Source: Chloroflexota bacterium (GTDB lineage Bacteria; Chloroflexota; Dehalococcoidia; JABGRK01). From it: a stretch of DNA of 64,000 nt. A program made the translations under genes and the position numbers. The stretch spans positions 141,969 to 205,968 of the forward strand of contig JABGRK010000009.1 in the NCBI GenBank assembly GCA_018648325.1, written 5' to 3'. The notes below the pieces were generated by a model. The model was not told the origin of the DNA and searched no databases. It saw only the letters and a program-made list of their open reading frames with translations. This document shows positions 4,340 to 20,327 of this stretch, one piece after another. Every line of letters starts with the position of its first letter. Position 1 is the stretch's first letter.

Positions 4340-7228
4340 TTAAGCTCCCTCTATATGTTCTAAAACAGGCCTGTAGACGTTTAGCATATCTATAAAGCTC
4401 TCTCTTGTAAAGTCATGAGAGCTATAGAGGGCCTCTTCGCAGAATGTAATAAACCTATCCAGCTTCCTCTGGTCGATATCTTTGAGTGATGCGACAATTA
4501 CACTCTCGATTTCTCTAGGTGTAGACTTCCTGCTTATATAAATGTCCCTATGCCTTGAGGCATTGACTGCCGAATCAAAGAGGCTGACAGCCTCCTCGCG
4601 ATAGTCAACTATTTTTATTGCCCTGCTATCATTTGACGGAGCATATTTCCCATCCCCATTAAAGAAGCACGTAACGTTATAGATGCCCTGCACTTTAAAG
4701 CGGCACATATATACGTCGGTACCATGTCCGTCCGTAATAATTTCACTTATTCTGTTGTCATTTGCCAACACCTCAATAGAGCGTGTGGCGACAGGCTCAC
4801 TCGCGATATCAGTGAGTTTACATACGATTTTGAGTTTTTCGTTTGTCCCCCATATTCCCTCAAGCGGTGCTGCGACATAAGGAAACTGCACTTCCATACG
4901 AGTGACTATAAGATTTGGGTTGTACTGCCTGGCAGGTTTCTCTGGCATTTCCGGTATTTCGGAAACCAATACCTCTTGAAGCGCAACAGTGTTCTGGGTC
5001 GCTGCCATAACATATGCGGCCCTGCGCCTTGAGCGAATAAAGAGATAGGCAACATATGCGGCCACAAGCGCCCCAAGTGCGACTAGAATCCACAGCACCC
5101 ATCCCATATAATCCTGGGCAGTCGCAGGGGCGCTAAGGTCTGCGCCATAATTCCGCTGGCCAATCTGCATATTAAAAACGGTTTGAGCAGGTGTATACAA
5201 CTCCGAACCATCAAATACAGCAGTAATGGTATAGTCACCGGAATTTGAGAAAAGATGCTCACTCATCTTAAAATTACCACCCAAATTGGTTAGAACCGGT
5301 TCATATTCAATTTCACTGCCATCAAAATCAATGATGACCCTAACCGGTACCTGTCTAACAGGGGATTGATCACCAGTGAGTATGTTACCCCGTATCTTTA
5401 TATCATCAAACTCGGTGGCGGTTTCAGGCATCTGGTCATCGAATGCAATCACGGATTGGGCCATAACGATAAAAGTGATGTTTTCATTGGATCCCCAAAA
5501 ATAGCCGGTTTGCTGAAAGTCTGACTGAAATTCCCAATATCCTTCTTCATCAAATTCATGGTTAATAAGAATTATGCCATCTGCATCGGTGTTCTGAAGT
5601 GGATAACCATGATGAGCTATACCCATTGATGTACTATAATCAATGCTCTGTCCGGCAACAGGATTGCCCTCTACATCACGCAACTCCACCTCAATAGACA
5701 CTTCATCCCCTGTCATGTGCGGTGCCGGCGAAGTTACAACTACACTTATGCGGGTAGGCATCATAACAACCATATCGGTACTGACACTGGTCGGCAGATA
5801 ATCAGACGTGCCAAGAAAAAAGGCCGTTGCGGTGTAATTTCCAACTCCCGAAAAGCCGTCCACCCAAGTGTAACTATAGCGGCCTTTCACATCTGTGATA
5901 GTTTGTACACGCATATCAGGATCGCTCACTGGAAAGACCATCTGTAGTTCAGTATGTGGGATGGGATCGCCATTAATGTCTTCGAGTACACCACCAAGAG
6001 TTACGGCGCGCTCAAACATGAAACTTCCAGAATAATCGGTTGTCAAAGAGCCAAGCGGGATGGATGCTACTGCATCTTCAAACCACAAATCTACGCTAAC
6101 ATTAGATTCAAAAGAATAGCCATATAAAGGATTATATGACCTGACAGTACCCTGAAGGCCAATTGAATAGGGCAGAGAATATGCCCCATCGGAGTCGGTT
6201 AACATCAGCACCTGCGGGAAAAAGGCACGCTGGTCCAGCAACAAATCAACTGTAAGCCCGTCAAACGGATCACCGCCATAAGTGGTAATTGTTCCTCTAA
6301 GATCAAATGTTGTAGATAATATAAACTGACCCAGCCCATTGGTTGTCAACTGGGCAAATACTACCATCCCCTCACCATCGTCTATCATAAGGTCAATGGT
6401 CTGCCCTGTTATTGGCTGACCCAGGGCATCGGTAAGAACGCCGGCAATATTAATAACATCATCTAGCACAAAGCCACCGCTTGCATCTGTAACTACCTGT
6501 GCAGAAATTGACTTGCTGCACAGATGAATATACACCGATTGGTTTATTAGAGGATCACCAAACTCATCCAACAAAAAGCCCTCATATGTAACAGGGTTGA
6601 GTGCATCAATTACACTTTCAGAATCAAGAGTAAGAGCAGAATCGATACGCGTCTCAATAACAGCCACAGCGTTAGAGCCTGCCAAATAAAGAGCGCTCCG
6701 TTGTTCAAATTCTGTTTTGACCCCGAATATATTAAAATCTTCAAACGTATATGTAAAGCTGTAGCTTCCATTCAAATTTGTGGTAAATGTGCCAATATAG
6801 TCGCCATTGATACTCAGATATATCGTCTGGTCGGCTATCGGGTCGCCCGACACCGTTTCCGTAAGAAAGCCTTCAATAACAACTTCCTCATTTATTAGGG
6901 CATACTGCGGCATATTTATAGTGAGTGTGGTTGGAGTAAGCACCATTACTTGATAAGAGTTATCGGCAGCGGGCGGATATAAGTTGGCACCGGCAAACGA
7001 GGCGGTGATCTCATAATCGCCGGAAGCATTAAACGTATGCACCAGAAAAAAGCGCCCTTTATCGTCAGTTACAACCTGTACATCGGGACTGCCGTCGTCA
7101 ACATGAATATTAACGGTGTAACCCACCAGGTCATTACCGAACTCGTCATGCATCGCCCCCCCCAATATCACAGGGTCCGTACGCAAGCGGCTGATTGCTA
7201 ACAAAAAGAACAATGGTGGGAGGACCAT
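4340..7228 (-). CDS. C-terminal portion (962 aa) of giant repeat surface protein: Ig-like repeats, one TM helix, ~250-aa C-terminal tail
   Basis: repeat units homologous to those of 7146..10508 (…EFGNDL…DGSPD…); frame differs from upstream ORF by a G8 tract. Confidence 0.65.
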   Translation of the reverse strand: MVLPPLFFLLAISRLRTDPVILGGAMHDEFGNDLVGYTVNIHVDDGSPDVQVVTDDKGRFFLVHTFNASGDYEITASFAGANLYPPAADNSYQVMVLTPTTLTINMPQYALINEEVVIEGFLTETVSGDPIADQTIYLSINGDYIGTFTTNLNGSYSFTYTFEDFNIFGVKTEFEQRSALYLAGSNAVAVIETRIDSALTLDSESVIDALNPVTYEGFLLDEFGDPLINQSVYIHLCSKSISAQVVTDASGGFVLDDVINIAGVLTDALGQPITGQTIDLMIDDGEGMVVFAQLTTNGLGQFILSTTFDLRGTITTYGGDPFDGLTVDLLLDQRAFFPQVLMLTDSDGAYSLPYSIGLQGTVRSYNPLYGYSFESNVSVDLWFEDAVASIPLGSLTTDYSGSFMFERAVTLGGVLEDINGDPIPHTELQMVFPVSDPDMRVQTITDVKGRYSYTWVDGFSGVGNYTATAFFLGTSDYLPTSVSTDMVVMMPTRISVVVTSPAPHMTGDEVSIEVELRDVEGNPVAGQSIDYSTSMGIAHHGYPLQNTDADGIILINHEFDEEGYWEFQSDFQQTGYFWGSNENITFIVMAQSVIAFDDQMPETATEFDDIKIRGNILTGDQSPVRQVPVRVIIDFDGSEIEYEPVLTNLGGNFKMSEHLFSNSGDYTITAVFDGSELYTPAQTVFNMQIGQRNYGADLSAPATAQDYMGWVLWILVALGALVAAYVAYLFIRSRRRAAYVMAATQNTVALQEVLVSEIPEMPEKPARQYNPNLIVTRMEVQFPYVAAPLEGIWGTNEKLKIVCKLTDIASEPVATRSIEVLANDNRISEIITDGHGTDVYMCRFKVQGIYNVTCFFNGDGKYAPSNDSRAIKIVDYREEAVSLFDSAVNASRHRDIYISRKSTPREIESVIVASLKDIDQRKLDRFITFCEEALYSSHDFTRESFIDMLNVYRPVLEHIEGA

Positions 7229-10200
7229 ACACCCGTATCACATCAGATGCTGAGTTAGACTTATAATAATCATTTTCGGTAAAAACGGCGTATACAGTAC
7301 GATCGCCGGAGTCAGTAAATGTGTGATCGTAAGTATAGCTGCCATCTCCTAAAATTTCCACATTGCCGCTGATAAGCGTTACTCCATCAAACAGGGATAA
7401 GCTTTGCCCTGCCAGCGGGATGCCATCTATATCATGTAGAGTACCATTGATAGTAATCTGAGTATTTACTTTTGCCTCTTCAGGAACGTTAACAGTAAGC
7501 TGGGTCGGCATTATTATTTTGATAATGTCAGAAGAACTTGTTCCGGGATAAAGCGCCGTTCCTATAAAACTAGCTGTTACAGTATAATCGCCTACATCAG
7601 CAAACGTATGCTCCCATACAAATAGTCCGCCTGCGCCCGTCACAAACGGAACATCGGGGCTACCATCTGAGAAATGAATTACAACCGGTTGGCCCTCTAG
7701 ATCGTTGCCGAACTCCTCATACATATGAATTCTGATAGTAACAGGCTGATCATATATATCTACTCTTGGGATCAGGATAATGTCTATAAACGGCGGACCA
7801 TACACACGTACATCAGCAACCGGTTCGCTGCGAGCCTCCTTATAGAAGTTAGCATTATCAACAGCGAATTTTGCAAATACATCGTAATCGCCCGAGCGTA
7901 CAAACTTATAATCAACTTCGTAGCTTCCATCAGACTGTGTAGTTGTCTGTGTAAGAACCTCATCACCGTTCATTATGTAAACCGTTGTACCCGCAAGAGG
8001 ATCACCCCAGTCATCCAGCAAAGAGCCTTCCATTGTAAGCGTTGTAGCCTGTTTGATTTCGATTGGCAGCGCGTTCATGGTTATACTGGTGGGCATCCAC
8101 ACAGTTACATCTACGCTGCTCTCAACACCGGGCATATAAGGGTCTATACCATCAAAAGCAGCACTTATTGTACGCTGCCCAACAGACAAGTATTGGATAG
8201 GGACCTCCAAAATACCCTGATTATCTGTTAGCAGATTGCCAATATTAACTGAATTTCCATTGCGAATGGAGTAAAAATGTATTATTTCCCCACTCACAGG
8301 TTCATCAAATTCGTCTATTAAGGTAGCTTTTATGAGATTCCCTCTCTCCTCATCATTGTCAATCACTCCATTATTATTTCTATCCAGAGATACATCTACG
8401 TTTTCATCTATCTCAAGTGTGAGAGTAGGCGGACCATACACGCGTATATCCTGCTCAAACCTTGAGGAATTGAACAATCCAAAAGTCGGGTCTTCATCCG
8501 GGAGGTAACCAAATATCCCGCCACCATCGTACACCACGCTGATGGTAAACTCGCCACGCTGATCAAACGTGCGATCCAACGTAAACTTCCCAGTGGGAAG
8601 CGTTACAACCTGTCCGATCAGAAGGGGTATCGTAGTGGCTCCCGTACGATTATAATAAATTCGCACTGTGCGGCCACCCATCTGCCTGCGAAGGATATCC
8701 TCAAGGGTGCCCTCAATCGTCCACGGGGCACCCAGCTTTATCTTTTCAGGCAGATTGTCAATAGAAAGAAGTGTATCTATAGTAACCTTTGTATCAGCGA
8801 TTTCGCTCACAGGCTTATGAAATTCATTGCCACTAAAAGATGCTTCAACGCTATAGTTTCCCTGAACACCAAAAACGTAGGGTAATACAAAGTCGCCACT
8901 TGGCAAAGTGGTAGTAGAAAGAGTGCTCAGTGTTGCGCCACTGTCTATATTTACTATTTCAATATCGACCGTTACCCCTGCTATAGGATTATCGGGGTAG
9001 ATTGCATCATGCAGATTGCCTGATATAATAAAAACATCGCCCACCTTGGCATCTTCAGACATTTTCGGTACAATCTCAGATTCCGTGGTAATGATTACAT
9101 CAGGATCACTATCCGATCCCAGCAGGAACGGCTGCAGACCCACCGCTTGCGCAATAATGTGCCAGTTGCCTGCCGTCATATCAATAGGCACATCGCACTC
9201 AATGTTATAGCCATCGCTTCCAACCACTCCCAATGCTACAAAAGAGGCTGGCTTGTTCGGCATCCCGTTAACAAATTCGGGCTTATCACTATCACCTCCC
9301 TGCCAGAGCCATATCCTTACAGGCATACTAGGCACGGTGATACCCTCAACGGTCGTTACATTGCCGATCACATAAAACGGCTGGTCTTTCTCTATTATAA
9401 TTCCTTCAAGAATGGGGGTTTCGGGATCATACTCAGGATTGCTCTGGATACTCCAGATATCGGTTATCGTCTCAACGGCTATATTATTTACATCTTTAAT
9501 CGGCATACTGTTGTAAACAATCCAACCAAGTTCCTCAAAACCTACCTCGGCCAGATAAATCGTCTGAACAGCGCTTACCGTCTGCTCTTCATCAGTAGGT
9601 GCAATCCAATATCCCGATGTCAGCCTTGCCGGTATGCCCGCGCAACGGGCCAATATCACATATGCCGATGCAAAGTGGTTTGAAAGACCCTGCCTCTCCT
9701 CAAACAAAAACCAGTCGGTTGCTTCCTCCCCACTAGGAAGAGCTGCCATATTTTCCCGCGAAAACTCGTAGTTTTCCAGTAAATACGTCTCTATGGCTTT
9801 CGATTTTTCGTAGGGGGACTCATAATCCGCAGTTATCTCAAGGGACAGTGCTTTAGTACGCGATGATATATTACCAGGCAGTTGCAGATACCTGGTGTCA
9901 TCAAGAACCTCTGCCTCAATGAGCACCTCATCATCAAAGTAGTAGTGTGTGGCAGTAAACTCGTAGGCCTCGGATGTACTCTGCTGCACCCAAAAGGACC
10001 CCGCCTCCGGATACAACATTATGGGATCGGGATGCGTAAGCTGTCTGGTATGAAGCGAAGTTGGAATAAACTGAGCAGGGAACTGTAAAAGCGGTGTGAT
10101 CGTAATTGTGTCTGTTGCCATATTCGAGTAGTTGCTCACATCAGCAGCGGGAAGCGTTTCGCCACGATAACTTCGCGGCTTATCATTTATGTCTTTTGCC

Positions 10201-10508
10201 CAAAGATTGCCATTATAGTGCGTTGCAGCAAAGCTTCTTAAGAAAAAAGTACTGCCTGCACCGGAAACAGTAAAAATATCCACATCACCAGGATAGTCCC
10301 CTTTCGGCTCTATCCCATCCCAACCTGCAGGCATGATAGCTGAGGGTTCAATATCCTTATCCCATATAGTATGCAAAATTGCATCTTCGGCCAACGGCGA
10401 TATCAGATTATCCGATATCATCATAAAAAGGCCGACCAGCGATACTAACACCGCCGCACCTACAAACGGAGCCAGAAGTCTCCTTTTGGAGCCAAACATG
10501 TTTCTCAT
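7146..10508 (-). CDS. N-terminal portion (1120 aa) of giant surface protein: signal/anchor, degenerate transglutaminase-like core, ~8 Ig-like/CarboxypepD_reg-like repeats
   Basis: …GLSNHFASAYVILARCAGIPARLTSGYW… resembles Transglut_core but Cys->Ser, His->Thr, Asp->Asn; recurring ~95-aa repeats ending RVYGPP. Confidence 0.7.
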   Translation of the reverse strand: MRNMFGSKRRLLAPFVGAAVLVSLVGLFMMISDNLISPLAEDAILHTIWDKDIEPSAIMPAGWDGIEPKGDYPGDVDIFTVSGAGSTFFLRSFAATHYNGNLWAKDINDKPRSYRGETLPAADVSNYSNMATDTITITPLLQFPAQFIPTSLHTRQLTHPDPIMLYPEAGSFWVQQSTSEAYEFTATHYYFDDEVLIEAEVLDDTRYLQLPGNISSRTKALSLEITADYESPYEKSKAIETYLLENYEFSRENMAALPSGEEATDWFLFEERQGLSNHFASAYVILARCAGIPARLTSGYWIAPTDEEQTVSAVQTIYLAEVGFEELGWIVYNSMPIKDVNNIAVETITDIWSIQSNPEYDPETPILEGIIIEKDQPFYVIGNVTTVEGITVPSMPVRIWLWQGGDSDKPEFVNGMPNKPASFVALGVVGSDGYNIECDVPIDMTAGNWHIIAQAVGLQPFLLGSDSDPDVIITTESEIVPKMSEDAKVGDVFIISGNLHDAIYPDNPIAGVTVDIEIVNIDSGATLSTLSTTTLPSGDFVLPYVFGVQGNYSVEASFSGNEFHKPVSEIADTKVTIDTLLSIDNLPEKIKLGAPWTIEGTLEDILRRQMGGRTVRIYYNRTGATTIPLLIGQVVTLPTGKFTLDRTFDQRGEFTISVVYDGGGIFGYLPDEDPTFGLFNSSRFEQDIRVYGPPTLTLEIDENVDVSLDRNNNGVIDNDEERGNLIKATLIDEFDEPVSGEIIHFYSIRNGNSVNIGNLLTDNQGILEVPIQYLSVGQRTISAAFDGIDPYMPGVESSVDVTVWMPTSITMNALPIEIKQATTLTMEGSLLDDWGDPLAGTTVYIMNGDEVLTQTTTQSDGSYEVDYKFVRSGDYDVFAKFAVDNANFYKEARSEPVADVRVYGPPFIDIILIPRVDIYDQPVTIRIHMYEEFGNDLEGQPVVIHFSDGSPDVPFVTGAGGLFVWEHTFADVGDYTVTASFIGTALYPGTSSSDIIKIIMPTQLTVNVPEEAKVNTQITINGTLHDIDGIPLAGQSLSLFDGVTLISGNVEILGDGSYTYDHTFTDSGDRTVYAVFTENDYYKSNSASDVIRVYGPPTIVLFVSNQPLAYGPCDIGGGDA
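7156..7163 (-). repeat. poly-G(8) homopolymer on coding strand at the frame junction of the giant protein
   Basis: …catcgcccccccc aat… ; with 7 G the two ORFs fuse into one ~2,050-aa protein (…PCDIGGAMHDEF…). Confidence 0.8.
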
Positions 10509-14345: not shown

Positions 14346-14726
14346 CTAAATACTGTCTATAACCTTCTTAAGTTTCTGCTCCACCTGCAGCGCTATCTCA
14401 CCCAACCCCCGGTTTTCAACCGCGCTCATGGCAACCGTAGGTACTATGGCAGATGCATATGTCTTGCCTTCCTGCTCATAAACTATCACGTTGCACGGCA
14501 ACAGCAAGCCAATGTCCCGCTCGGCCTTAAGTGCCTCATAGGCAAACGGCGGATTGCATGCTCCTAAAATAACGTACTTATCAAAATCAACGTCCATCTT
14601 CTTTTTAAGCGTTGCCTTTACATCTATCTCGGTAAGTATGCCAAAGCCCTCTTTTGCAAGCTCTTCTGTCGCTTTTTGCTTAACCTGATCATACGTCCCG
14701 TCTATCTGTCTTTTATATCCGTACAT
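14346..14726 (-). CDS. DUF302 domain protein
   Basis: …YVILGACNPPFAYEAL… typical DUF302. Confidence 0.65.
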   Translation of the reverse strand: MYGYKRQIDGTYDQVKQKATEELAKEGFGILTEIDVKATLKKKMDVDFDKYVILGACNPPFAYEALKAERDIGLLLPCNVIVYEQEGKTYASAIVPTVAMSAVENRGLGEIALQVEQKLKKVIDSI

Positions 14727-14771
14727 GTTTTTACCTCCTGATGTGTGTTTGATAGCAAGCGTGGTTATCGC

Positions 14772-16079
14772 TTACTTATCTATTGTATCATCAGCGCATA
14801 TTATTTTGCATCCGTCCATGTCGACACCATCGCCTTTGCCCTTAAGCGGCGTAAGCAGCATGAGCAAGGCGAATACGGCGGCAATAGCAGCAACAGGCCA
14901 GAAGTATCCGCCCAAACCATCATGCCCCTTTACATAGTCCACCGCCACACCAAGGATTGGTGCAACAAGCATTGTGGAAAATGATTTTGCCTGACTTTCT
15001 ATGGATAGAATGGTGGCACCATGCGTTTCAGAGGCAAAAGCATCGAACCTGCTCATTAACATAGGACGCCAGAAATTCTGGATGAGAGCAAGACAAATGA
15101 AGCCAACTATAGCTACATAGTAATACTCAAAGTAAAGCAGCGGGACAAGGGCTATATAGAAAACAAAGGCCATTTTCCACAGCAAACGACTGCCCTTTTC
15201 CTCCCCACCTGCACGATCGCTCAAGATGTGAGAATGACGGCTGGCATAGGCTGATCCCAGATACAAGATGAAGTAGACTATGCAAACCAAAATTGTTTCG
15301 CGGCTCCTGTCCGCCATGCCAACAAAAATGGGAACAAGTAATACAAGACCAGCAACTACGGGCTGCAAATAACTTTCAGCCGCCTTATAAACGCCTTCAA
15401 ACGACATCGATTCAACGATCAGGCGACGCAAACGTTTCATGGCAATCGCACTGCGCAAACACTGCCAAAGATGAACGCATACGTTTCGAACACTCACTCC
15501 GGTAGAGGTCTGCCCCTCCAGCTCGGCCGGATAGCTAAGGAAATTAATCAGTCCTATCACATATGGCACAATGGCAAAAAGGAACACATAGCTGTAATCG
15601 TTGGTCAGTAGAACAATGGGAATGGCCAGTAACGTAGACAGCGCCGACCCCAGCTTGGACCAGGAGCGCGTATAGCCATAAACCTTTGTTTTTTCATCGG
15701 TGCGGCCCCTGTTGCGTAGCCATGTAAATATCATCGCCTTGTTCGTGCCTGTTCTAAACGCCTCACCTATGGCAAAAAAGAACATGGCGATAAAGAAATA
15801 CCAGTAATACGGGCTAAAACCGAATATGGCAAAGGCACCAAATGTGGCGAAAGAGGCGATATATGCAACAAACGATAGTATCATACTGCGTCGGCGGCCG
15901 AACAGATCGGCGATAGCACCACTGGGTATTTCCATGATTATAACGCAAAGCTCGCGGAATCCGATAAGAAGGCCAATCTGAGTGAATGTTAGCCCGTGCT
16001 GCAGGAAGTACAATATAATAATCGGATCAAAATAGCGCTGATTCTTTAAAAATCCGTATAGTGAAAATCGCCTAATCAT
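14772..16079 (-). CDS. MFS transporter
   Basis: 12-TM profile, MFS motifs (…GAIADLFGRRR…). Confidence 0.8.
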   Translation of the reverse strand: MIRRFSLYGFLKNQRYFDPIIILYFLQHGLTFTQIGLLIGFRELCVIIMEIPSGAIADLFGRRRSMILSFVAYIASFATFGAFAIFGFSPYYWYFFIAMFFFAIGEAFRTGTNKAMIFTWLRNRGRTDEKTKVYGYTRSWSKLGSALSTLLAIPIVLLTNDYSYVFLFAIVPYVIGLINFLSYPAELEGQTSTGVSVRNVCVHLWQCLRSAIAMKRLRRLIVESMSFEGVYKAAESYLQPVVAGLVLLVPIFVGMADRSRETILVCIVYFILYLGSAYASRHSHILSDRAGGEEKGSRLLWKMAFVFYIALVPLLYFEYYYVAIVGFICLALIQNFWRPMLMSRFDAFASETHGATILSIESQAKSFSTMLVAPILGVAVDYVKGHDGLGGYFWPVAAIAAVFALLMLLTPLKGKGDGVDMDGCKIICADDTIDK

Positions 16080-16095
16080 CTAGTTTATCTGCCGC

Positions 16096-16401
16096 CTATT
16101 TTTCATCAATTACTTCTTTTACCAGTTCCATGATCTGCTTTTTGGACTGGGCCAACATACTTAGCCCCTCATCGGTTGCACGGTAGTACTTGCGCATCTT
16201 GCCGCCGACGATTTCACGATTGCTGAACAGATACCCATCACGCTCAAGACGATGTAGCATGGGATAGAGCGTACCTGGGCTGATGTCGTAGCCATGCCTT
16301 GCCAGTTCACTCATAATCTCCACTCCAAAGATGGGCTCTTTGGAAGCGTGATATATGATGTGTATCTTAACAAACCCTAGAAAAAACTCTCTGTCTATCA
16401 T
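16096..16401 (-). CDS. PadR-family transcriptional regulator
   Basis: …HGYDISPGTLYPMLHRLERDGYL… wHTH signature; start taken at MIDREFF. Confidence 0.75.
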   Translation of the reverse strand: MIDREFFLGFVKIHIIYHASKEPIFGVEIMSELARHGYDISPGTLYPMLHRLERDGYLFSNREIVGGKMRKYYRATDEGLSMLAQSKKQIMELVKEVIDEK

Positions 16402-16472
16402 AATAACGCCTACCGATATTGCTAACCGATATAGTACTTCATGGAGGATCAAAAGTCAAGGTATCGGCATAA

Positions 16473-16503
16473 AAAAGACCGGCCCGATTTGGGCCGGTCT
16501 TAC
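16473..16503 (-). terminator. rho-independent terminator of arsM operon
   Basis: perfect 11-bp stem AAGACCGGCCC/GGGCCGGTCTT, followed by T6 on minus strand. Confidence 0.6.
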
Positions 16504-16526
16504 GTACTTAAATGAAAATCTTAGCC

Positions 16527-16691
16527 TTATTCAGGCTTTGGCACACAGCCGCAGGAACATGCTTGGCCCGTATTTGGAGCGCAATTTACCATCCACTTTT
16601 CGGCATCGGGACCGCAGAATGATTTCATCTGCTCCATCCAATCTGCAAACTGCTTTTCTTTGCCTTGATCTTTAGACTTCTGCTCAGACAT
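16527..16691 (-). CDS. 54-aa Cys-rich peptide downstream of arsM (candidate metal(loid)-binding peptide)
   Basis: MSEQKSKDQGKEKQFADWMEQMKSFCGPDAEKWMVNCAPNTGQACSCGCVPKPE; own GGAGG RBS; not in ORF track. Confidence 0.45.
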   Translation of the reverse strand: MSEQKSKDQGKEKQFADWMEQMKSFCGPDAEKWMVNCAPNTGQACSCGCVPKPE

Positions 16692-16750
16692 TTTTGCACC
16701 TCCTTTCCTTTTTCAGCTGACATTTATTACAGCCGTCAGATGTTTTTCAT

Positions 16751-17584
16751 CTATTTGGATTTGATGGCCTGCACCTTTATGCTTATGATCGAGCTGGACA
16801 CTTCCCTGACCTGCTCAGCAGTTATGCCTAAGTCTGCAACGATCTGTTCAGTAGCATTGTCGTAGATACCGGCAGCAGACACTTCGCTCACTATTTTGAC
16901 ATCTGTAAATCCGGCTGATGTGAGGTTTGCCAGGTAATCTTCTTTTGTCTCGGCACCGGCCACACATCCTACATATGCCTCTACAGAACCCTTGATACCC
17001 TCCGGCAGCTCCTTTAATAGCACTATGTCTGATAGCATTACCCTGCCGCCGGGCCTGAGCACGCGATACGCCTCGGAAAACACCTGCCGCTTATCCGGGG
17101 AAAGATTGATCACACAGTTGGATATGATAGCATCTACAGTGTTGTCGGCAACGGGCAAATGCTCTATCTCACCCATCCTGAATTCTACGTTATCGTAACC
17201 ACCTTTGCTGGCATTTTCCCGCGCCCGCTCAAGCATGGCCGGCGTCATGTCTACACCGATCACCCTGCCCGTCTTACCCACGGCAGCAGCGGCCAGAAAA
17301 CAGTCGATACCTGCGCCGGAGCCCAGGTCGAGCACAACCTCACCTTCTTTAAGTGAGGCCATTGCAGTGGGATTACCACAGCCAAGCCCCAGATCCGCAC
17401 CATCGGGCAGTGAAGCCAGTTGCTCATCAGTGTAGCCTATCGCCTTGCTGGCAGTATCTGGCGTCGGACCACCGCAACACGGTGATGCCTGCAATGATTC
17501 GGGCCCGCAGCAGGAACCGCCCTGCTGGGTTGCCACCTTTCCATAGCTTTCTCTAACAGCGTTTCTTATATCCTGATCGTTCAT
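16751..17584 (-). CDS. arsM: arsenite S-adenosylmethionine methyltransferase
   Basis: N-terminal Cys pairs (…GGSCCGPES…SPCCGG…), SAM motif VLDLGSGAGIDCFLAA, full-length similarity to ArsM/AS3MT. Confidence 0.85.
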   Translation of the reverse strand: MNDQDIRNAVRESYGKVATQQGGSCCGPESLQASPCCGGPTPDTASKAIGYTDEQLASLPDGADLGLGCGNPTAMASLKEGEVVLDLGSGAGIDCFLAAAAVGKTGRVIGVDMTPAMLERARENASKGGYDNVEFRMGEIEHLPVADNTVDAIISNCVINLSPDKRQVFSEAYRVLRPGGRVMLSDIVLLKELPEGIKGSVEAYVGCVAGAETKEDYLANLTSAGFTDVKIVSEVSAAGIYDNATEQIVADLGITAEQVREVSSSIISIKVQAIKSK

Positions 17585-17604
17585 TTTACTTTCTCCTTCA
17601 TTTT

Positions 17605-17943
17605 TTATAGAATGTCTTTCATTAACGGACCGAGCATCTGCTTTACCATATCCGTCAGATCATCGGCTTTGGTCATTACAATGCAGCAAACCTTGCCGTC
17701 TTTTTCCCAGCTGGACAGGGCAAGCTTATCGCCCGATTTTATACCAGCCTTTTCGCGCAGGTCTTTGGGCAGCACCATCTGGCCCCTGTCGTCTACACTT
17801 ACCAGCGCCTCAACCTTGCAGCAACCGGCTGTTGAACAATTGTCCTGAGAACAACAATCGCCGGACATATCCTTATCCATAACTTTCCTCCTTGTTTGAT
17901 GCTTAAGTGTTTTCAGTATATTCAGAATATTCTGATTTGTCAA
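17605..17943 (-). CDS. AbrB/SpoVT-type DNA-binding protein with Cys-rich N-terminus (putative arsenic-responsive regulator)
   Basis: …VDDRGQMVLPKDLREKAGIKSGDKLAL… swapped-hairpin motif; N-term …SGDCCSQDNCSTAGCCK…; immediately upstream of arsM. Confidence 0.5.
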   Translation of the reverse strand: MTNQNILNILKTLKHQTRRKVMDKDMSGDCCSQDNCSTAGCCKVEALVSVDDRGQMVLPKDLREKAGIKSGDKLALSSWEKDGKVCCIVMTKADDLTDMVKQMLGPLMKDIL

Positions 17944-17987
17944 GAGGGTAGTTAAAATTGTATAATTATTATGTAGGGGGAATAGCC

Positions 17988-18407
17988 ATGAAACATAAAA
18001 ACAGGTTTGTATCGATACTGATGCTGGCGGTTTGCACTATTGCAATCGCAGTAATTGCTGCGTGCGGCACACCCCAAACGCACCAGGACATATCAGTACA
18101 ACAAGCACACCAGCTTATTGAGGACAACCAGTCAAACAGCAACTTCGTTATCCTGGATATACGAGCGCCTTCGGAATATGCAGATGGATATATAGCAGGC
18201 GCACTGAACATTAATTTCTACGACACCGATTTTGCAGACCAGATTGACGCGCTGGACAAAAGCAAAACGTATCTGGTTTACTGCCGCTCAGCAAATCGCA
18301 GCGGACAGGCCATGCCCACATTCAACGATCTTGGATTTACTGACGTGTACGATATGCAAGGCGGCATCGTGGCATGGTTAAATGCAGGATACGACGTACT
18401 GGAGTAG
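17988..18407 (+). CDS. rhodanese-domain sulfurtransferase lipoprotein
   Basis: MKHKNRFVSILMLAVCTIAIAVIAAC lipobox; active-site loop YCRSANRSG. Confidence 0.75.
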   Translation: MKHKNRFVSILMLAVCTIAIAVIAACGTPQTHQDISVQQAHQLIEDNQSNSNFVILDIRAPSEYADGYIAGALNINFYDTDFADQIDALDKSKTYLVYCRSANRSGQAMPTFNDLGFTDVYDMQGGIVAWLNAGYDVLE

Positions 18408-18515: not shown

Positions 18516-20327
18516 ATGCCTATAATTCTGGCGTTGTTCTTAACATTTACTATGTTTGCAAGTAATTGTTCAACGTCATGCAACAGCATTACAGCTGTTG
18601 AAATCACTTCCAACGCATGGGAACGGTTTAATCCTTTGCCACAAGGTAATGATCTCCGCGCTGTCTGGGGCACTTCATCATCGGATGTGTACGCTGTGGG
18701 TTGGGCAGGTACCATAGTTCATTATGACGGCAACAACTGGGATGTGATGATAAGCGGCACAACAGAAGATCTTACCGGCATCTGGGGCAGTTCATCATCC
18801 GATGTGTACGCAGTAGGTGGAGAAGGAACCATACGGCACTATGATGGCAGCACATGGTCTCCAATGAATAGTGGCACCACAGAACCACTTTCTGATATTT
18901 GGGGCACTTCATCATCCAATATCTACGCAGTGGGTTGGGACGGAACTATTCAGCACTATAACGGTAGCCGGTGGACTCCCGTAAAAATTGCCGGTACATT
19001 GATCGGTAAATATGATTTTAGCTGCACTCCTTATCTCTTAAATCCAATTGATGAGGTTTGGGGCAGCTCAGAATCTGATGTGTTCATTGCGACTTCGCAT
19101 ACCATACTGCATTTTGACGGCAACGCATGGACTGAGATGGATAGCAGTCTTACAGCTGCACTTAATGATGTTTGGGGCAGTTCTTCCACCGATGTCTTTG
19201 CCGCAGGCTATAACGGTATTATCCATTATGACGGCAACGCATGGACTTCAATGGATAGTGGCAATACAGAGACCATTTATGGAATCTGGGGTAGTTCATC
19301 ATCCGATGTCTACGCCATAGGTACAGGTAGCGCTATCCTGCACTATGACGGAATCAGATGGACTGAGGTGTATGGTGATCCCACAGATTACTTGGCTAAT
19401 ATCGCTGATATTTGGGGCAGTTCTTCCGGTGATATCTTTGCCGTAGGAAATCAAGGCACCATTATACATTATGACGGCAACAACTGGGATGTGATGATAA
19501 GTGGTGTTACACTCTACGCAATCTGGGGCAGTTCATCTACCGATGTTTTCGTTACGGGTAGCCATGGCACTATATTGCATTATGATGGCAGCACTTGGGG
19601 TGCGATGGAGAGTGGCACCACAGAACCCCTTTTTGATATTTGGGGCACTTCATCATCCAATGTCTACGCAGTGGGTGGAGACGGAACTATACGGCACTAT
19701 AATGGCAACAAGTGGAATTCAATGTACAGCGGAACAACAAAGTACCTTGCCGGAATCTGGGGCACTTCATCATCCAATGTCTACGCAGTGGGTTGGGACG
19801 AAATTATTCACTATGATGGCAGAACATGGTCTCCGATGCACGATTATACAACAACGGTTAGTTTGGACGCCATATGGGGCAGTTCCTCATCCGATATCTA
19901 CGCAGTGGGTGGGGGACGAAGTCAACATTATAATGGCAGTACCTGGTCCGAGATGGACGATATATACGGGCTTTGGGATATATGGGGCAGTTCATCATCT
20001 GATGTCTTCGCTGTGGGTATATACGGCGGGATTACATACTACGATGGAAACGAGTGGACTACAATGGATATCGTCCAACGTACGGGAGTAGGTAACACTT
20101 GCAATGCAGGTGCAAAGTCGCCAGCTTACGTAAGCGATTTCACTGCGCTCTGGGGCAGTTCATCCACTGATGTTTATGCTGTGGGGGAAAGCGGCATTAT
20201 GCATTACGATGGCATAGAATGGACCACAATAGACAATACGGTGTCGCTTAACGCAATCTGGGGCAGTTCAGCTTCTGATGTCTATGCGATAGCAAACGGT
20301 GGCACTATTCTGCATTTGTCGGAATAG
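18516..20327 (+). CDS. secreted beta-propeller-like repeat protein (~15 x ~38-aa WGSSSSDVYAVG…GTI.HYDG..W repeats; Ycf48/BNR-like)
   Basis: highly regular repeats, also near-identical at DNA level (ggggcagttcatcatccgatgt… recurring). Confidence 0.6.
   Translation: MPIILALFLTFTMFASNCSTSCNSITAVEITSNAWERFNPLPQGNDLRAVWGTSSSDVYAVGWAGTIVHYDGNNWDVMISGTTEDLTGIWGSSSSDVYAVGGEGTIRHYDGSTWSPMNSGTTEPLSDIWGTSSSNIYAVGWDGTIQHYNGSRWTPVKIAGTLIGKYDFSCTPYLLNPIDEVWGSSESDVFIATSHTILHFDGNAWTEMDSSLTAALNDVWGSSSTDVFAAGYNGIIHYDGNAWTSMDSGNTETIYGIWGSSSSDVYAIGTGSAILHYDGIRWTEVYGDPTDYLANIADIWGSSSGDIFAVGNQGTIIHYDGNNWDVMISGVTLYAIWGSSSTDVFVTGSHGTILHYDGSTWGAMESGTTEPLFDIWGTSSSNVYAVGGDGTIRHYNGNKWNSMYSGTTKYLAGIWGTSSSNVYAVGWDEIIHYDGRTWSPMHDYTTTVSLDAIWGSSSSDIYAVGGGRSQHYNGSTWSEMDDIYGLWDIWGSSSSDVFAVGIYGGITYYDGNEWTTMDIVQRTGVGNTCNAGAKSPAYVSDFTALWGSSSTDVYAVGESGIMHYDGIEWTTIDNTVSLNAIWGSSASDVYAIANGGTILHLSE

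What the first reader, a model, noticed from the sequence alone, without database searches (positions are those of the whole stretch)
16470..17945. arsM operon with an unconventional AbrB-type Cys-rich putative regulator and a 54-aa Cys-rich peptide
The operon lacks ArsR or ArsD. Instead, arsM is preceded by a 112-aa protein combining an AbrB/SpoVT swapped-hairpin DNA-binding motif (VDDRGQMVLPKDLREKAGIKSGDKLAL) with vicinal cysteines (GDCCSQDNCSTAGCC, VCCIV). It is followed by an unannotated 54-aa peptide with its own RBS (…SFCGPD…NCAPN…ACSCGCVPKPE). A perfect 11-bp-stem terminator closes the unit. Vicinal Cys pairs are the As(III)-binding determinants in ArsR, ArsD and ArsM. These could therefore be a novel As(III)-sensing repressor and a small metalloid-binding chaperone or buffer peptide. 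A rhodanese lipoprotein gene (17988..18407) lies divergently adjacent.
Basis: partly seen in the sequence, partly recalled or inferred. Interest (0 to 1): 0.5.

Follow-up and report, generated by a model that had tools for sequence, protein, structure and literature searches.

The report
Cysteine-rich AbrB-type regulator controlling arsM
A small cysteine-rich DNA-binding protein of the little-studied "HgcC" family sits in front of an arsenic-methylating enzyme gene. The same protein family, with the same repeated DNA site in its promoter, also precedes the mercury-methylation genes in many other anaerobic bacteria and archaea. It is therefore probably a shared, untested metal(loid)-sensing switch, whereas the 54-residue peptide behind arsM is an unconserved orphan.

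Summary
The sequence features are real. On the minus strand lie an AbrB-fold Cys-rich gene, arsM, a 54-codon ORF and an 11-bp-stem terminator, with a divergent rhodanese lipoprotein gene next to them.

The "novel regulator" belongs to a family NCBI already names: NF040962, "HgcAB-associated protein HgcC" (120.5 bits, cutoff 70). A 2023 paper flagged this family as a putative archaeal hgcAB regulator, and I found no experiments on it. No hgcA motif occurs in the 64-kb window.

In 81 related loci the gene directly after HgcC is ArsM (49) or HgcA (26). Two vicinal Cys pairs are conserved family-wide (C20/C21 and C65/C66). ArsM-linked members usually carry an extra N-terminal Cys pair.

Of 96 HgcC upstream regions, 70 carry at least 3 tandem 9-bp units (WWTCWGAWW). 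In bacteria the arrays overlap the sigma-70 core promoter. In archaea they abut the TATA box. I found no such array anywhere else.

The best reading is an autoregulated hgcC-arsM operon whose repressor is released by a thiophilic metal(loid). The ligand is inferred, not shown.

The 54-aa peptide has no homolog anywhere and intermediate codon usage, so the chaperone idea has no support.

The parts
17605..17880 (-). hgcC-family gene: a 91-aa AbrB/SpoVT-fold protein with an N-terminal CC (C9/C10) and conserved pairs C20/C21 and C65/C66. It is the putative autoregulator.
   Evidence: NF040962 scores 120.5 bits against cutoff 70; TIGR01439 and PF04014 are above cutoff. Public gene calls give 91 aa. 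Cys conservation is shown. The AF2 model has pLDDT >90 for residues 21-80, with SpoVT, AbrB and MazE as fold hits.
17887..17893 (-). Shine-Dalgarno sequence AAGGAGG, 6 nt upstream of ATG 17880.
   Evidence: Read directly from the sequence.
17915..17943 (-). Sigma-70-type promoter of the hgcC-arsM operon: TTGACA-N17-TATACT, 11 of 12 consensus matches.
   Evidence: CTTGACA is present in 60 of 96 homologous upstream regions.
17913..17935 (.). Putative HgcC operator: three 9-bp-spaced pentamers (TCAGA, TCTGA, ACTGA on the minus strand). They lie in the -35/-10 spacer and overlap the -10 hexamer. This is the only such array in the 64-kb window.
17937..17966 (+). Divergent promoter-like site TTGTCA-N18-TATAAT for the rhodanese gene. 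Its -35 hexamer overlaps the -35 of the hgcC promoter.
16751..17584 (-). arsM: a 277-aa SAM-dependent arsenite methyltransferase with an N-terminal CC...CC region and three catalytic Cys motifs.
   Evidence: NF008823 scores 358.6 bits against cutoff 263. The match to PDB 5EVJ has E 2.5e-37 with the Cys motifs aligned.
16527..16691 (-). Orphan 54-codon ORF with 6 Cys and a GGAGG Shine-Dalgarno sequence. Its coding status is unresolved.
16475..16501 (-). Intrinsic terminator with a perfect 11-bp stem (8 G-C pairs), a 5-nt loop and a TTTTAT tail. It closes the unit.
17988..18407 (+). Divergent rhodanese-domain lipoprotein gene of 139 aa. It may be co-regulated, because the promoter region is shared.
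   Evidence: PF00581 hit at E 2.1e-19. Conserved only in L001, at 47% identity.

Best explanation
This is an autoregulated two-gene detoxification or methylation operon, hgcC-arsM, possibly with a lineage-specific third ORF. It ends at a strong terminator.

HgcC is a 91-aa AbrB/SpoVT swapped-hairpin DNA-binding protein. It most likely binds as an oligomer to three tandem 9-bp units (core TCWGA). These units lie inside and over the -10 of its own TTGACA-N17-TATACT promoter, so binding would occlude RNA polymerase.

Four conserved cysteines in two vicinal pairs flank the DNA-binding barrel, and ArsM-linked members carry a further N-terminal pair. These are proposed to bind a thiophilic metal(loid): As(III) or methyl-As(III) here, and possibly Hg(II) in hgcAB-linked relatives. 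Binding would release the repressor and switch on ArsM.

Shown here:
- family membership and fold;
- conserved Cys pairs;
- conserved adjacency to ArsM or HgcA;
- the conserved, promoter-overlapping repeat array, found only at hgcC promoters.

Inferred:
- that HgcC is the protein that binds the array;
- that it represses rather than activates;
- the identity of the ligand.

The 54-aa ORF is treated as an unconserved add-on of unknown reality, not as part of the conserved system.
For: **Family and fold.** NF040962 scores 120.5 bits against cutoff 70. AbrB and SpoVT structures are the nearest by sequence and by fold.

**Family size.** 1642 hits in the 5.8-billion-protein database, 466 clusters at 50% identity, and at least 596 genomes.

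**Synteny.** The gene directly downstream is ArsM in 49 loci. It is HgcA in 24 loci, plus L040 and L068, out of 81. The hosts include Dehalococcoidia, Nitrospirota, Syntrophales, Desulfobacterales, Methanoperedens, Methanoregulaceae, Bathyarchaeota and Thermoplasmatota.

**Cysteines.** C20/C21 are present in 41/47 of 49 ArsM-linked and 18/23 of 24 HgcA-linked members. C65/C66 are present in 45/49 of 49 and 24/24 of 24. Among 150 diverse representatives the counts are 90-126 of about 145.

**Operator.**
- 7-mers such as AATCAGA occur in 60 of 96 upstream regions, against about 2.5 in controls.
- Strict pentamers are spaced 9, 18 or 27 nt apart.
- 70 of 96 regions have at least 3 units in exact 9-nt register, against about 1% of control windows and 0.1% of shuffles.
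- There are no further arrays in 988 kb of flanking genome sequence, and only one in the window.
- None of 32 arsM loci that lack HgcC has an array.
- 57 of 57 bacterial arrays overlap the core promoter. 9 of 9 archaeal arrays end 3-4 nt before the TATA box.

**No alternative regulator.** No ArsR or other ars genes lie within +/-10 kb.

**Context from the literature.** An ArsR-like regulator with a four-Cys site controls hgcAB in P. mercurii ND132 and responds to arsenic (10.1101/2022.10.17.512643). From general knowledge, vicinal Cys pairs are As(III) or MAs(III) ligands in AfArsR, CgArsR, SpArsR and ArsD.
Against: - No experiment exists for any family member. PMC10349881 offers only a hypothesis.
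- The ligand is unproven. Four Cys could equally hold Zn or an Fe-S cluster, or act as a redox switch.
- The monomer model gives no Cys geometry, and no dimer or tetramer could be modelled.
- A 9-bp period is shorter than a helical turn and has no established precedent that I could check.
- In archaea, a site at the BRE could in principle activate rather than repress.
- The 80 genome loci were the best matches to this arsM-linked query, so the 49:26 ratio is biased toward ArsM.
- 26 of 96 upstream regions have fewer than 3 units in strict register. Some of these may reflect wrong start-codon choices or short contigs.
Confidence: 0.58

Rival explanations
1. HgcC is a DNA-binding autoregulator, but its four conserved cysteines hold an Fe-S cluster or Zn, or form a thiol/disulfide switch. 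On this view it senses O2 or redox state rather than a metal(loid), and confines ArsM and HgcAB expression to anoxic conditions.
For: All hosts found are anaerobic lineages. There are exactly four strongly conserved Cys per monomer. HgcAB needs a low-potential corrinoid and ferredoxin (general knowledge). The operator evidence is neutral about the ligand.
Against: The only two partner genes are metal(loid) methylases, which argues for a substrate-related signal. ArsM-linked members gain an extra N-terminal Cys pair (31-36 of 49, against 7-8 of 24), as expected if the partner gene shapes ligand chemistry. From general knowledge, vicinal CC pairs are typical As(III) or MAs(III) ligands and unusual cluster ligands.
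Confidence: 0.17
2. HgcC is mainly an accessory protein or metallochaperone. It would hand As(III) or Hg(II) to ArsM or HgcA through its Cys pairs, and the upstream repeat array would be bound by some other factor.
For: It is always co-operonic with the enzyme. It is small and Cys-rich, and the NCBI name suggests a functional partnership. ArsM and HgcB themselves carry Cys-rich tails.
Against: The invariant residues (D30, R32, G33, Q34, P38, K39, R42) lie in the AbrB DNA-recognition loop and helix. The array follows HgcC across bacteria and archaea whatever the partner gene, and is absent from arsM loci without HgcC. No other regulator gene is conserved at these loci.
Confidence: 0.1
3. The AbrB-like gene is a type II antitoxin (MazE or PrlF), as several automatic annotations state.
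For: PF04014 (MazE_antitoxin) scores 29.1 bits. JGI labels some homologs 'antitoxin PrlF'. PMC10349881 discusses it as related to toxin-antitoxin systems.
Against: No toxin gene follows it in any of 81 loci; the downstream gene is ArsM or HgcA. PrlF and MazE models score far below their cutoffs.
Confidence: 0.02
4. The 54-codon ORF is not a functional gene. On this view it is a chance ORF in a 250-nt 3' region that arose when the padR-MFS segment was inserted between arsM and DUF302.
For: It finds only itself in 5.8 billion proteins. No homolog appears in 153 related loci. Its codon score of 0.031 is lower than 98% of genuine coding windows. The nearest relative, L001, has only 42 nt between arsM and DUF302.
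Against: A canonical GGAGG lies 7 nt before an ATG. The ORF ends 26 nt before the terminator. It has the best codon score of the six frames and scores above 95.5% of non-coding frames. Every public pipeline calls it a gene.
Confidence: 0.4

Closest known systems
NCBIfam NF040962, 'HgcAB-associated protein HgcC' (the prlF/abrB-like gene upstream of hgcA noted in PMC10349881)
   Same: The score is above the equivalog cutoff. The length (about 90 aa), the AbrB domain, the CC...CC signature, the C-terminal helix and the promoter repeat array all match.
   Different: Here the partner gene is arsM, and no hgcA lies in the 64-kb window. The protein carries the extra N-terminal Cys pair typical of ArsM-linked members. 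I found no experimental characterisation of the family.
ArsR/SmtB As(III)-responsive repressors, including ArsR2 of Pseudodesulfovibrio mercurii ND132, which controls hgcAB
   Same: The proposed logic is the same: a small, Cys-based, autoregulated repressor encoded first in the operon and released by a thiophilic metalloid. ArsR2 also has a four-Cys site and links hgcAB to arsenic.
   Different: The fold is unrelated (winged helix against swapped-hairpin beta-barrel). The operator is also different: an inverted repeat against a 9-bp tandem array. No ArsR domain is detected here.
AbrB, SpoVT, MazE, MraZ and Sso7c4 swapped-hairpin DNA-binding proteins
   Same: The DNA-binding fold is the same. 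MraZ likewise binds tandem direct repeats near its own promoter (from memory).
   Different: None of these has the conserved Cys pairs or a metal link. Sequence similarity is limited to about 30 residues (E about 1e-4). MraZ repeats have a 10-bp period.
ArsD and other small Cys-rich metallochaperones
   Same: The peptide is Cys-rich and lies in an operon with an arsenic enzyme.
   Different: There is no sequence or profile similarity, no conservation and no thioredoxin-like fold prediction. The peptide is an orphan.

Membership tests
NCBIfam NF040962 HgcC | HMM score above the curated equivalog cutoff of 70 bits | tested here: met
   120.5 bits, E 1.9e-35, covering the full 70-position profile.
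NCBIfam NF040962 HgcC | Encoded next to hgcA and hgcB, as the family name implies | tested here: not met
   No HgcA cap-helix motif occurs in any frame of the 64-kb window. The downstream gene is arsM. The same holds in 49 of 81 family loci.
NCBIfam NF040962 HgcC | Conserved vicinal Cys pairs flanking the AbrB domain | tested here: met
   C20/C21 and C65/C66 are present here and conserved in the family.
AbrB/SpoVT (swapped-hairpin) DNA-binding superfamily | Domain models above cutoff and a matching fold | tested here: met
   TIGR01439 scores 35.7 (cutoff 28.3) and PF04014 scores 29.1 (cutoff 24.7). Top Foldseek hits are SpoVT, AbrB-N, Sso7c4 and MazE.
AbrB/SpoVT (swapped-hairpin) DNA-binding superfamily | Sequence-specific DNA binding as a dimer or tetramer | not testable with these tools
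   Support is indirect only: a conserved repeat array found exclusively at hgcC promoters.
Type II antitoxin (MazE/PrlF) | An adjacent cognate toxin gene | tested here: not met
   The downstream gene is ArsM or HgcA in all informative loci. PrlF scores 16.6 bits against a cutoff of 125.
ArsR/SmtB metalloregulators | HTH_5 or HTH_20 winged-helix domain | tested here: not met
   No such Pfam or NCBIfam hit on the protein, and none within +/-10 kb.
Arsenite S-adenosylmethionine methyltransferase (ArsM) | Family HMM above cutoff and three catalytic cysteines | tested here: met
   NF008823 scores 358.6 (cutoff 263). GCGNP, SNCVINL and GCVAGA align with the motifs of 5EVJ.
Arsenite S-adenosylmethionine methyltransferase (ArsM) | As(III) methylation activity | not testable with these tools
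   This needs an enzyme assay.
Metallochaperone or metallothionein-like peptide (54-aa ORF) | Membership of any described family, or conservation in related genomes | tested here: not met
   No Pfam or NCBIfam hit even at E 10. It finds only itself in 5.8 billion proteins. No tblastn match lies downstream of arsM in relatives.

The most novel reading that the evidence does not exclude
HgcC is the founding member of a new structural class of metal(loid)-sensing transcription factors: an AbrB swapped-hairpin fold with a vicinal-Cys sensor. It would use one universal 9-bp tandem-repeat operator to switch on either arsenic methylation (arsM) or mercury methylation (hgcAB) in anaerobic bacteria and archaea alike. 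This would mean that hgcAB and arsM respond to the same chemical signal, and that the native role of HgcAB is tied to metalloid stress.
Probability: 0.35. Interest if true: 0.8.

Novelty: new variant of a known kind. Interest (0 to 1): 0.55.

Why it matters
What regulates hgcAB, and what HgcAB is 'for', are open questions in mercury biogeochemistry. The regulation of arsM in anaerobes is also poorly understood.

This analysis shows that one uncharacterised regulator family, with one conserved operator, precedes both arsM and hgcAB across many bacterial and archaeal phyla. That yields a concrete experiment:
- a 91-aa protein;
- a 23-bp operator;
- candidate ligands As(III), MAs(III) and Hg(II).

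If the protein is a metal sensor, it adds an AbrB-fold class to the known metalloregulator families. It would also give a sequence marker, the hgcC gene plus its TCWGA array, for predicting when methylation genes are expressed in the environment.

For this particular window the practical consequences are modest. The regulator should be annotated as HgcC-family, 91 aa. The 54-aa ORF should stay 'hypothetical'.

Tried and rejected
- **Peptide homologs.** I searched for the 54-aa peptide in three ways. The 5.8-billion-protein search returned only the peptide itself. Relaxed tblastn against 83 genome loci and 73 metagenome loci gave nothing significant. The best non-self hits were a 99-aa Met/Cys protein 1 kb downstream in L018 (E 0.05) and the Cys-rich N-termini of ArsM homologs.
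- **Selection test on the peptide.** A dN/dS-style test was impossible. All nine other contigs that carry the peptide are 100% identical in DNA to the window across the locus (one shows a single mismatch outside the annotated genes). The next ArsM relatives are at most 68-72% identical.
- **Peptide as a duplicated arsM 5' end.** There is no DNA similarity. The protein similarity is not significant against composition-preserving shuffles (p about 0.05).
- **Structured RNA around the peptide ORF and terminator.** Rfam gave only sub-threshold hits driven by the terminator.
- **hgcAB in the window.** None was found.
- **Wider regulon.** No further TCWGA arrays occur in the window or in 988 kb of related loci.
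- **Alignment-based genome scan.** It worked with 19 sequences.
- **Literature.** Searches for 'HgcC' and for arsM with AbrB, SpoVT, PrlF or MazE found only PMC10349881 as relevant.
- **Cys-Cys distances and an oligomer-DNA model.** These could not be obtained. The tool returns no coordinates and accepts monomers only.
Full report
**1. Observation.**

The minus strand between 16470 and 17945 carries, in order:
- a Cys-rich AbrB-like ORF;
- arsM (16751..17584);
- a 54-codon Cys-rich ORF (16527..16691);
- an intrinsic terminator with a perfect 11-bp stem, at 16475..16501.

A rhodanese-domain lipoprotein gene (17988..18407) is divergent.

arsM is a bona fide family member. NF008823 scores 358.6 bits against a cutoff of 263. 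The three catalytic Cys motifs align with solved ArsM 5EVJ.

Public gene calls for the same, 100%-identical locus show no ArsR, ArsD, ArsB, Acr3 or ArsC within +/-10 kb.

- The 112-aa reading starts at a TTG that is the first three bases of the -35 hexamer of a TTGACA-N17-TATACT promoter. The real start is almost certainly ATG 17880, behind AAGGAGG, which gives 91 aa. That is the length public pipelines call and the length of homologs.
- The peptide is already annotated as 'hypothetical protein'.
- The rhodanese neighbour recurs only in the nearest relative.

**2. What the regulator is.**

The protein matches NCBIfam NF040962, 'HgcAB-associated protein HgcC', at 120.5 bits against a cutoff of 70. 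It also passes the generic AbrB/SpoVT models.

No member has a solved structure. The nearest PDB sequences are AbrB and SpoVT N-domains at E about 1e-4. An AlphaFold model built on 59 homologs is confident for residues 21-80. It retrieves SpoVT, AbrB, Sso7c4 and MazE as its best structural matches, and adds a C-terminal helix at residues 72-90.

The family is large:
- 1642 hits in the 5.8-billion-protein set;
- 466 clusters at 50% identity;
- relatives in at least 596 species genomes.

The only relevant paper I could find is PMC10349881. It noticed a prlF/abrB/mazE-like gene directly upstream of hgcA, mostly in archaeal methylators. It proposed the gene as a putative regulator but did no experiments.

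**3. Synteny.**

No HgcA signature occurs in the 64-kb window.

In 81 loci from other genomes, the gene immediately downstream of the HgcC homolog falls out as follows:

| Downstream gene | Loci |
|---|---|
| ArsM-like methyltransferase (53-72% identical to the window's) | 49 |
| HgcA, followed by HgcB | 24, plus L040 and L068 on inspection |
| Not assignable (contig ends, or a frameshifted ArsM) | 6 |

No locus has a toxin gene, so the 'antitoxin' labels are wrong.

Both arrangements occur in bacteria (Dehalococcoidia, Nitrospirota, Syntrophales, Desulfobacterales, Aminicenantes). Both also occur in archaea (Methanoperedens, Methanoregulaceae, Bathyarchaeota, Thermoplasmatota).

On a neighbour-joining tree the partner gene changes at least 7 times.

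One caveat applies. The 80 genome loci are the best matches to an arsM-linked query, so the ratio is biased toward ArsM.

**4. Cysteines.**

Two vicinal pairs are family signatures.
- C20/C21 lies in CC[KR]VE, just before strand 1.
- C65/C66 lies in the last strand.

In 150 mutually diverse representatives they are present in 90-107 of about 141 sequences and 109-126 of 148. They are conserved in both the ArsM-linked and HgcA-linked sets.

The N-terminal pair (C9/C10 here) is present in 31-36 of 49 ArsM-linked proteins but only 7-8 of 24 HgcA-linked ones. C15 is not conserved.

**5. A conserved operator.**

The 150 nt upstream of 96 hgcC genes share strongly enriched words:

| Word | Regions of 96 |
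|---|---|
| CTTGACA | 60 |
| AATCAGA | 60 |
| ATTCTGA | 45 |
| ATACTGA | 39 |
| Each word in control windows | about 2-4 |

Exact TC[AT]GA pentamers are spaced 9 nt (60 cases), 18 nt (14) or 27 nt (7), and almost never otherwise.

Seventy of the 96 regions hold at least 3 units in exact 9-nt register, with unit consensus WWTCWGAWW. That compares with about 1% of random windows from the same loci and 0.1% of shuffled upstream regions.

The array is exclusive to hgcC promoters:
- no further array in 988 kb of flanking genome sequence;
- exactly one in this 64-kb window (17913, 17922, 17931);
- none upstream of 32 arsM genes that lack hgcC.

Position is also conserved:
- In bacteria, 57 of 57 arrays overlap the core promoter, starting 7-36 nt after the start of the -35 hexamer.
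- In archaea, 9 of 9 arrays end 3-4 nt before the TATA box, where the BRE lies.

In the window, two units lie in the -35/-10 spacer and the third overlaps the -10 hexamer. The -35 of the divergent rhodanese promoter-like site overlaps the -35 of the hgcC promoter.

A cis-element that follows one small DNA-binding protein across two domains of life, whatever the downstream enzyme, is strong comparative evidence. It points to HgcC binding the element and autoregulating its own operon.

**6. Mechanism proposed.**

HgcC oligomers would occupy the 9-bp repeats and block RNA polymerase in bacteria, or TFB/TBP in archaea. A thiophilic metal(loid) bound by the Cys pairs would release the protein and allow transcription of hgcC-arsM.

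The ligand is inferred from three things:
- the only two partner enzymes are metal(loid) methylases;
- vicinal Cys pairs serve as As(III) or MAs(III) ligands in some ArsR proteins and in ArsD (general knowledge);
- the ArsR-like, four-Cys regulator ArsR2 responds to arsenic and controls hgcAB in P. mercurii ND132 (10.1101/2022.10.17.512643).

The rivals are a redox or Fe-S sensor, and a chaperone role.

**7. The peptide.**

- The 54-aa product finds only itself in 5.8 billion proteins.
- It has no Pfam or NCBIfam match even at E 10.
- It has no tblastn counterpart downstream of arsM in 80 genome loci and 73 metagenome loci.
- Nine other contigs that carry it are identical in DNA across the locus (one has a single mismatch outside the annotated genes), so selection cannot be measured.
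- Its codon-usage score (0.031) is the best of six frames and beats 95.5% of non-coding frames. It is also lower than 98% of real coding windows.
- Its resemblance to the ArsM N-terminus is compositional (p about 0.05).
- In the nearest relative, L001, DUF302 follows arsM after 42 nt. The segment of peptide, terminator, padR and MFS therefore looks like an insertion.

The chaperone or buffer idea has no support. Whether the ORF is translated at all remains open.

**8. Comparison and novelty.**

By sequence, the protein is a member of the named but uncharacterised HgcC family. It fails the contextual feature in that name, because there is no hgcAB here.

Functionally it resembles ArsR-type metalloid repressors, but it has an unrelated fold and a different operator.

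In the searchable literature I found no description of any of the following:
- the arsM linkage;
- the partner-dependent N-terminal Cys pair;
- the 9-bp tandem operator shared by arsM- and hgcAB-linked loci.

That library is incomplete, so prior description cannot be excluded.

I rate it a new variant of a known kind, of moderate interest. This locus is one of many similar ones. Even so, the family-level pattern it exposes bears directly on how arsenic and mercury methylation genes are controlled.

Noticed in passing
window 14346..16459 (-): A separate operon lies behind the arsM terminator. It holds a PadR regulator (best NCBIfam hit to the Rv3488 family, below cutoff; 16096..16401), an MFS transporter (14772..16079) and DUF302 (14346..14726). 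It has its own promoter-like site at 16459..16431. In relative L001, DUF302 (75% identical) follows arsM directly, so padR-MFS and the peptide ORF look inserted. This may be a second metal(loid)-related unit.
   Followed up: partly
window 18516..20327 (+): A 603-aa protein built from about 15 copies of a 39-aa repeat (WGSSSSDVYAVGxxGTIxHYDGxxW). TRF finds a 117-nt period at 18664..18964 and 19641..19967. No Pfam family is on record, and the repeat looks propeller-like.
   Followed up: no
L018 9192..10394 and L068 8144..9576: Some HgcC operons, whether arsM- or hgcA-linked, also encode two extra proteins. One is an AhpD-like 83-96-aa CxxC protein ending in CGCG or SCCG. The other is an ECF-type sigma factor. 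L018 adds a 99-aa Met/Cys-rich protein.
   Followed up: partly
L040 5863..6147, L068 10692..10994, window 16527..16691: Terminal 'CGC'-type Cys tails recur in proteins of these operons: HgcB tails contain SCGCG (followed by G in L040, by DTAGECC in L068), ArsM N-termini carry SCGC or CC, and pep54 ends in CSCGCVPKPE. This is compositional rather than homologous, and I did not quantify it.
   Followed up: no
window 17913..17935 and 96 related promoters: The operator period is exactly 9 bp, not 10-11 bp. Successive sites therefore rotate around the helix. No explanation was tested.
   Followed up: no
window 4340..10508 (-): Two very large adjacent ORFs of 962 and 1120 aa overlap by about 80 nt. 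Public calls give transglutaminase-core and Big-domain hits, suggesting cell-surface proteins.
   Followed up: no
L084-L093 (ENA, JGI and NCBI samples): The whole locus is 100% identical in DNA in about 20 contigs from different public samples (one of the ten compared contigs has a single mismatch). One is a 549-kb JGI contig, and another is NCBI MAG GCA_018671315.1 ('Chloroflexi bacterium'). The next ArsM relatives are at most 72% identical, so this is a widespread clonal population with no close sequenced relatives.
   Followed up: partly
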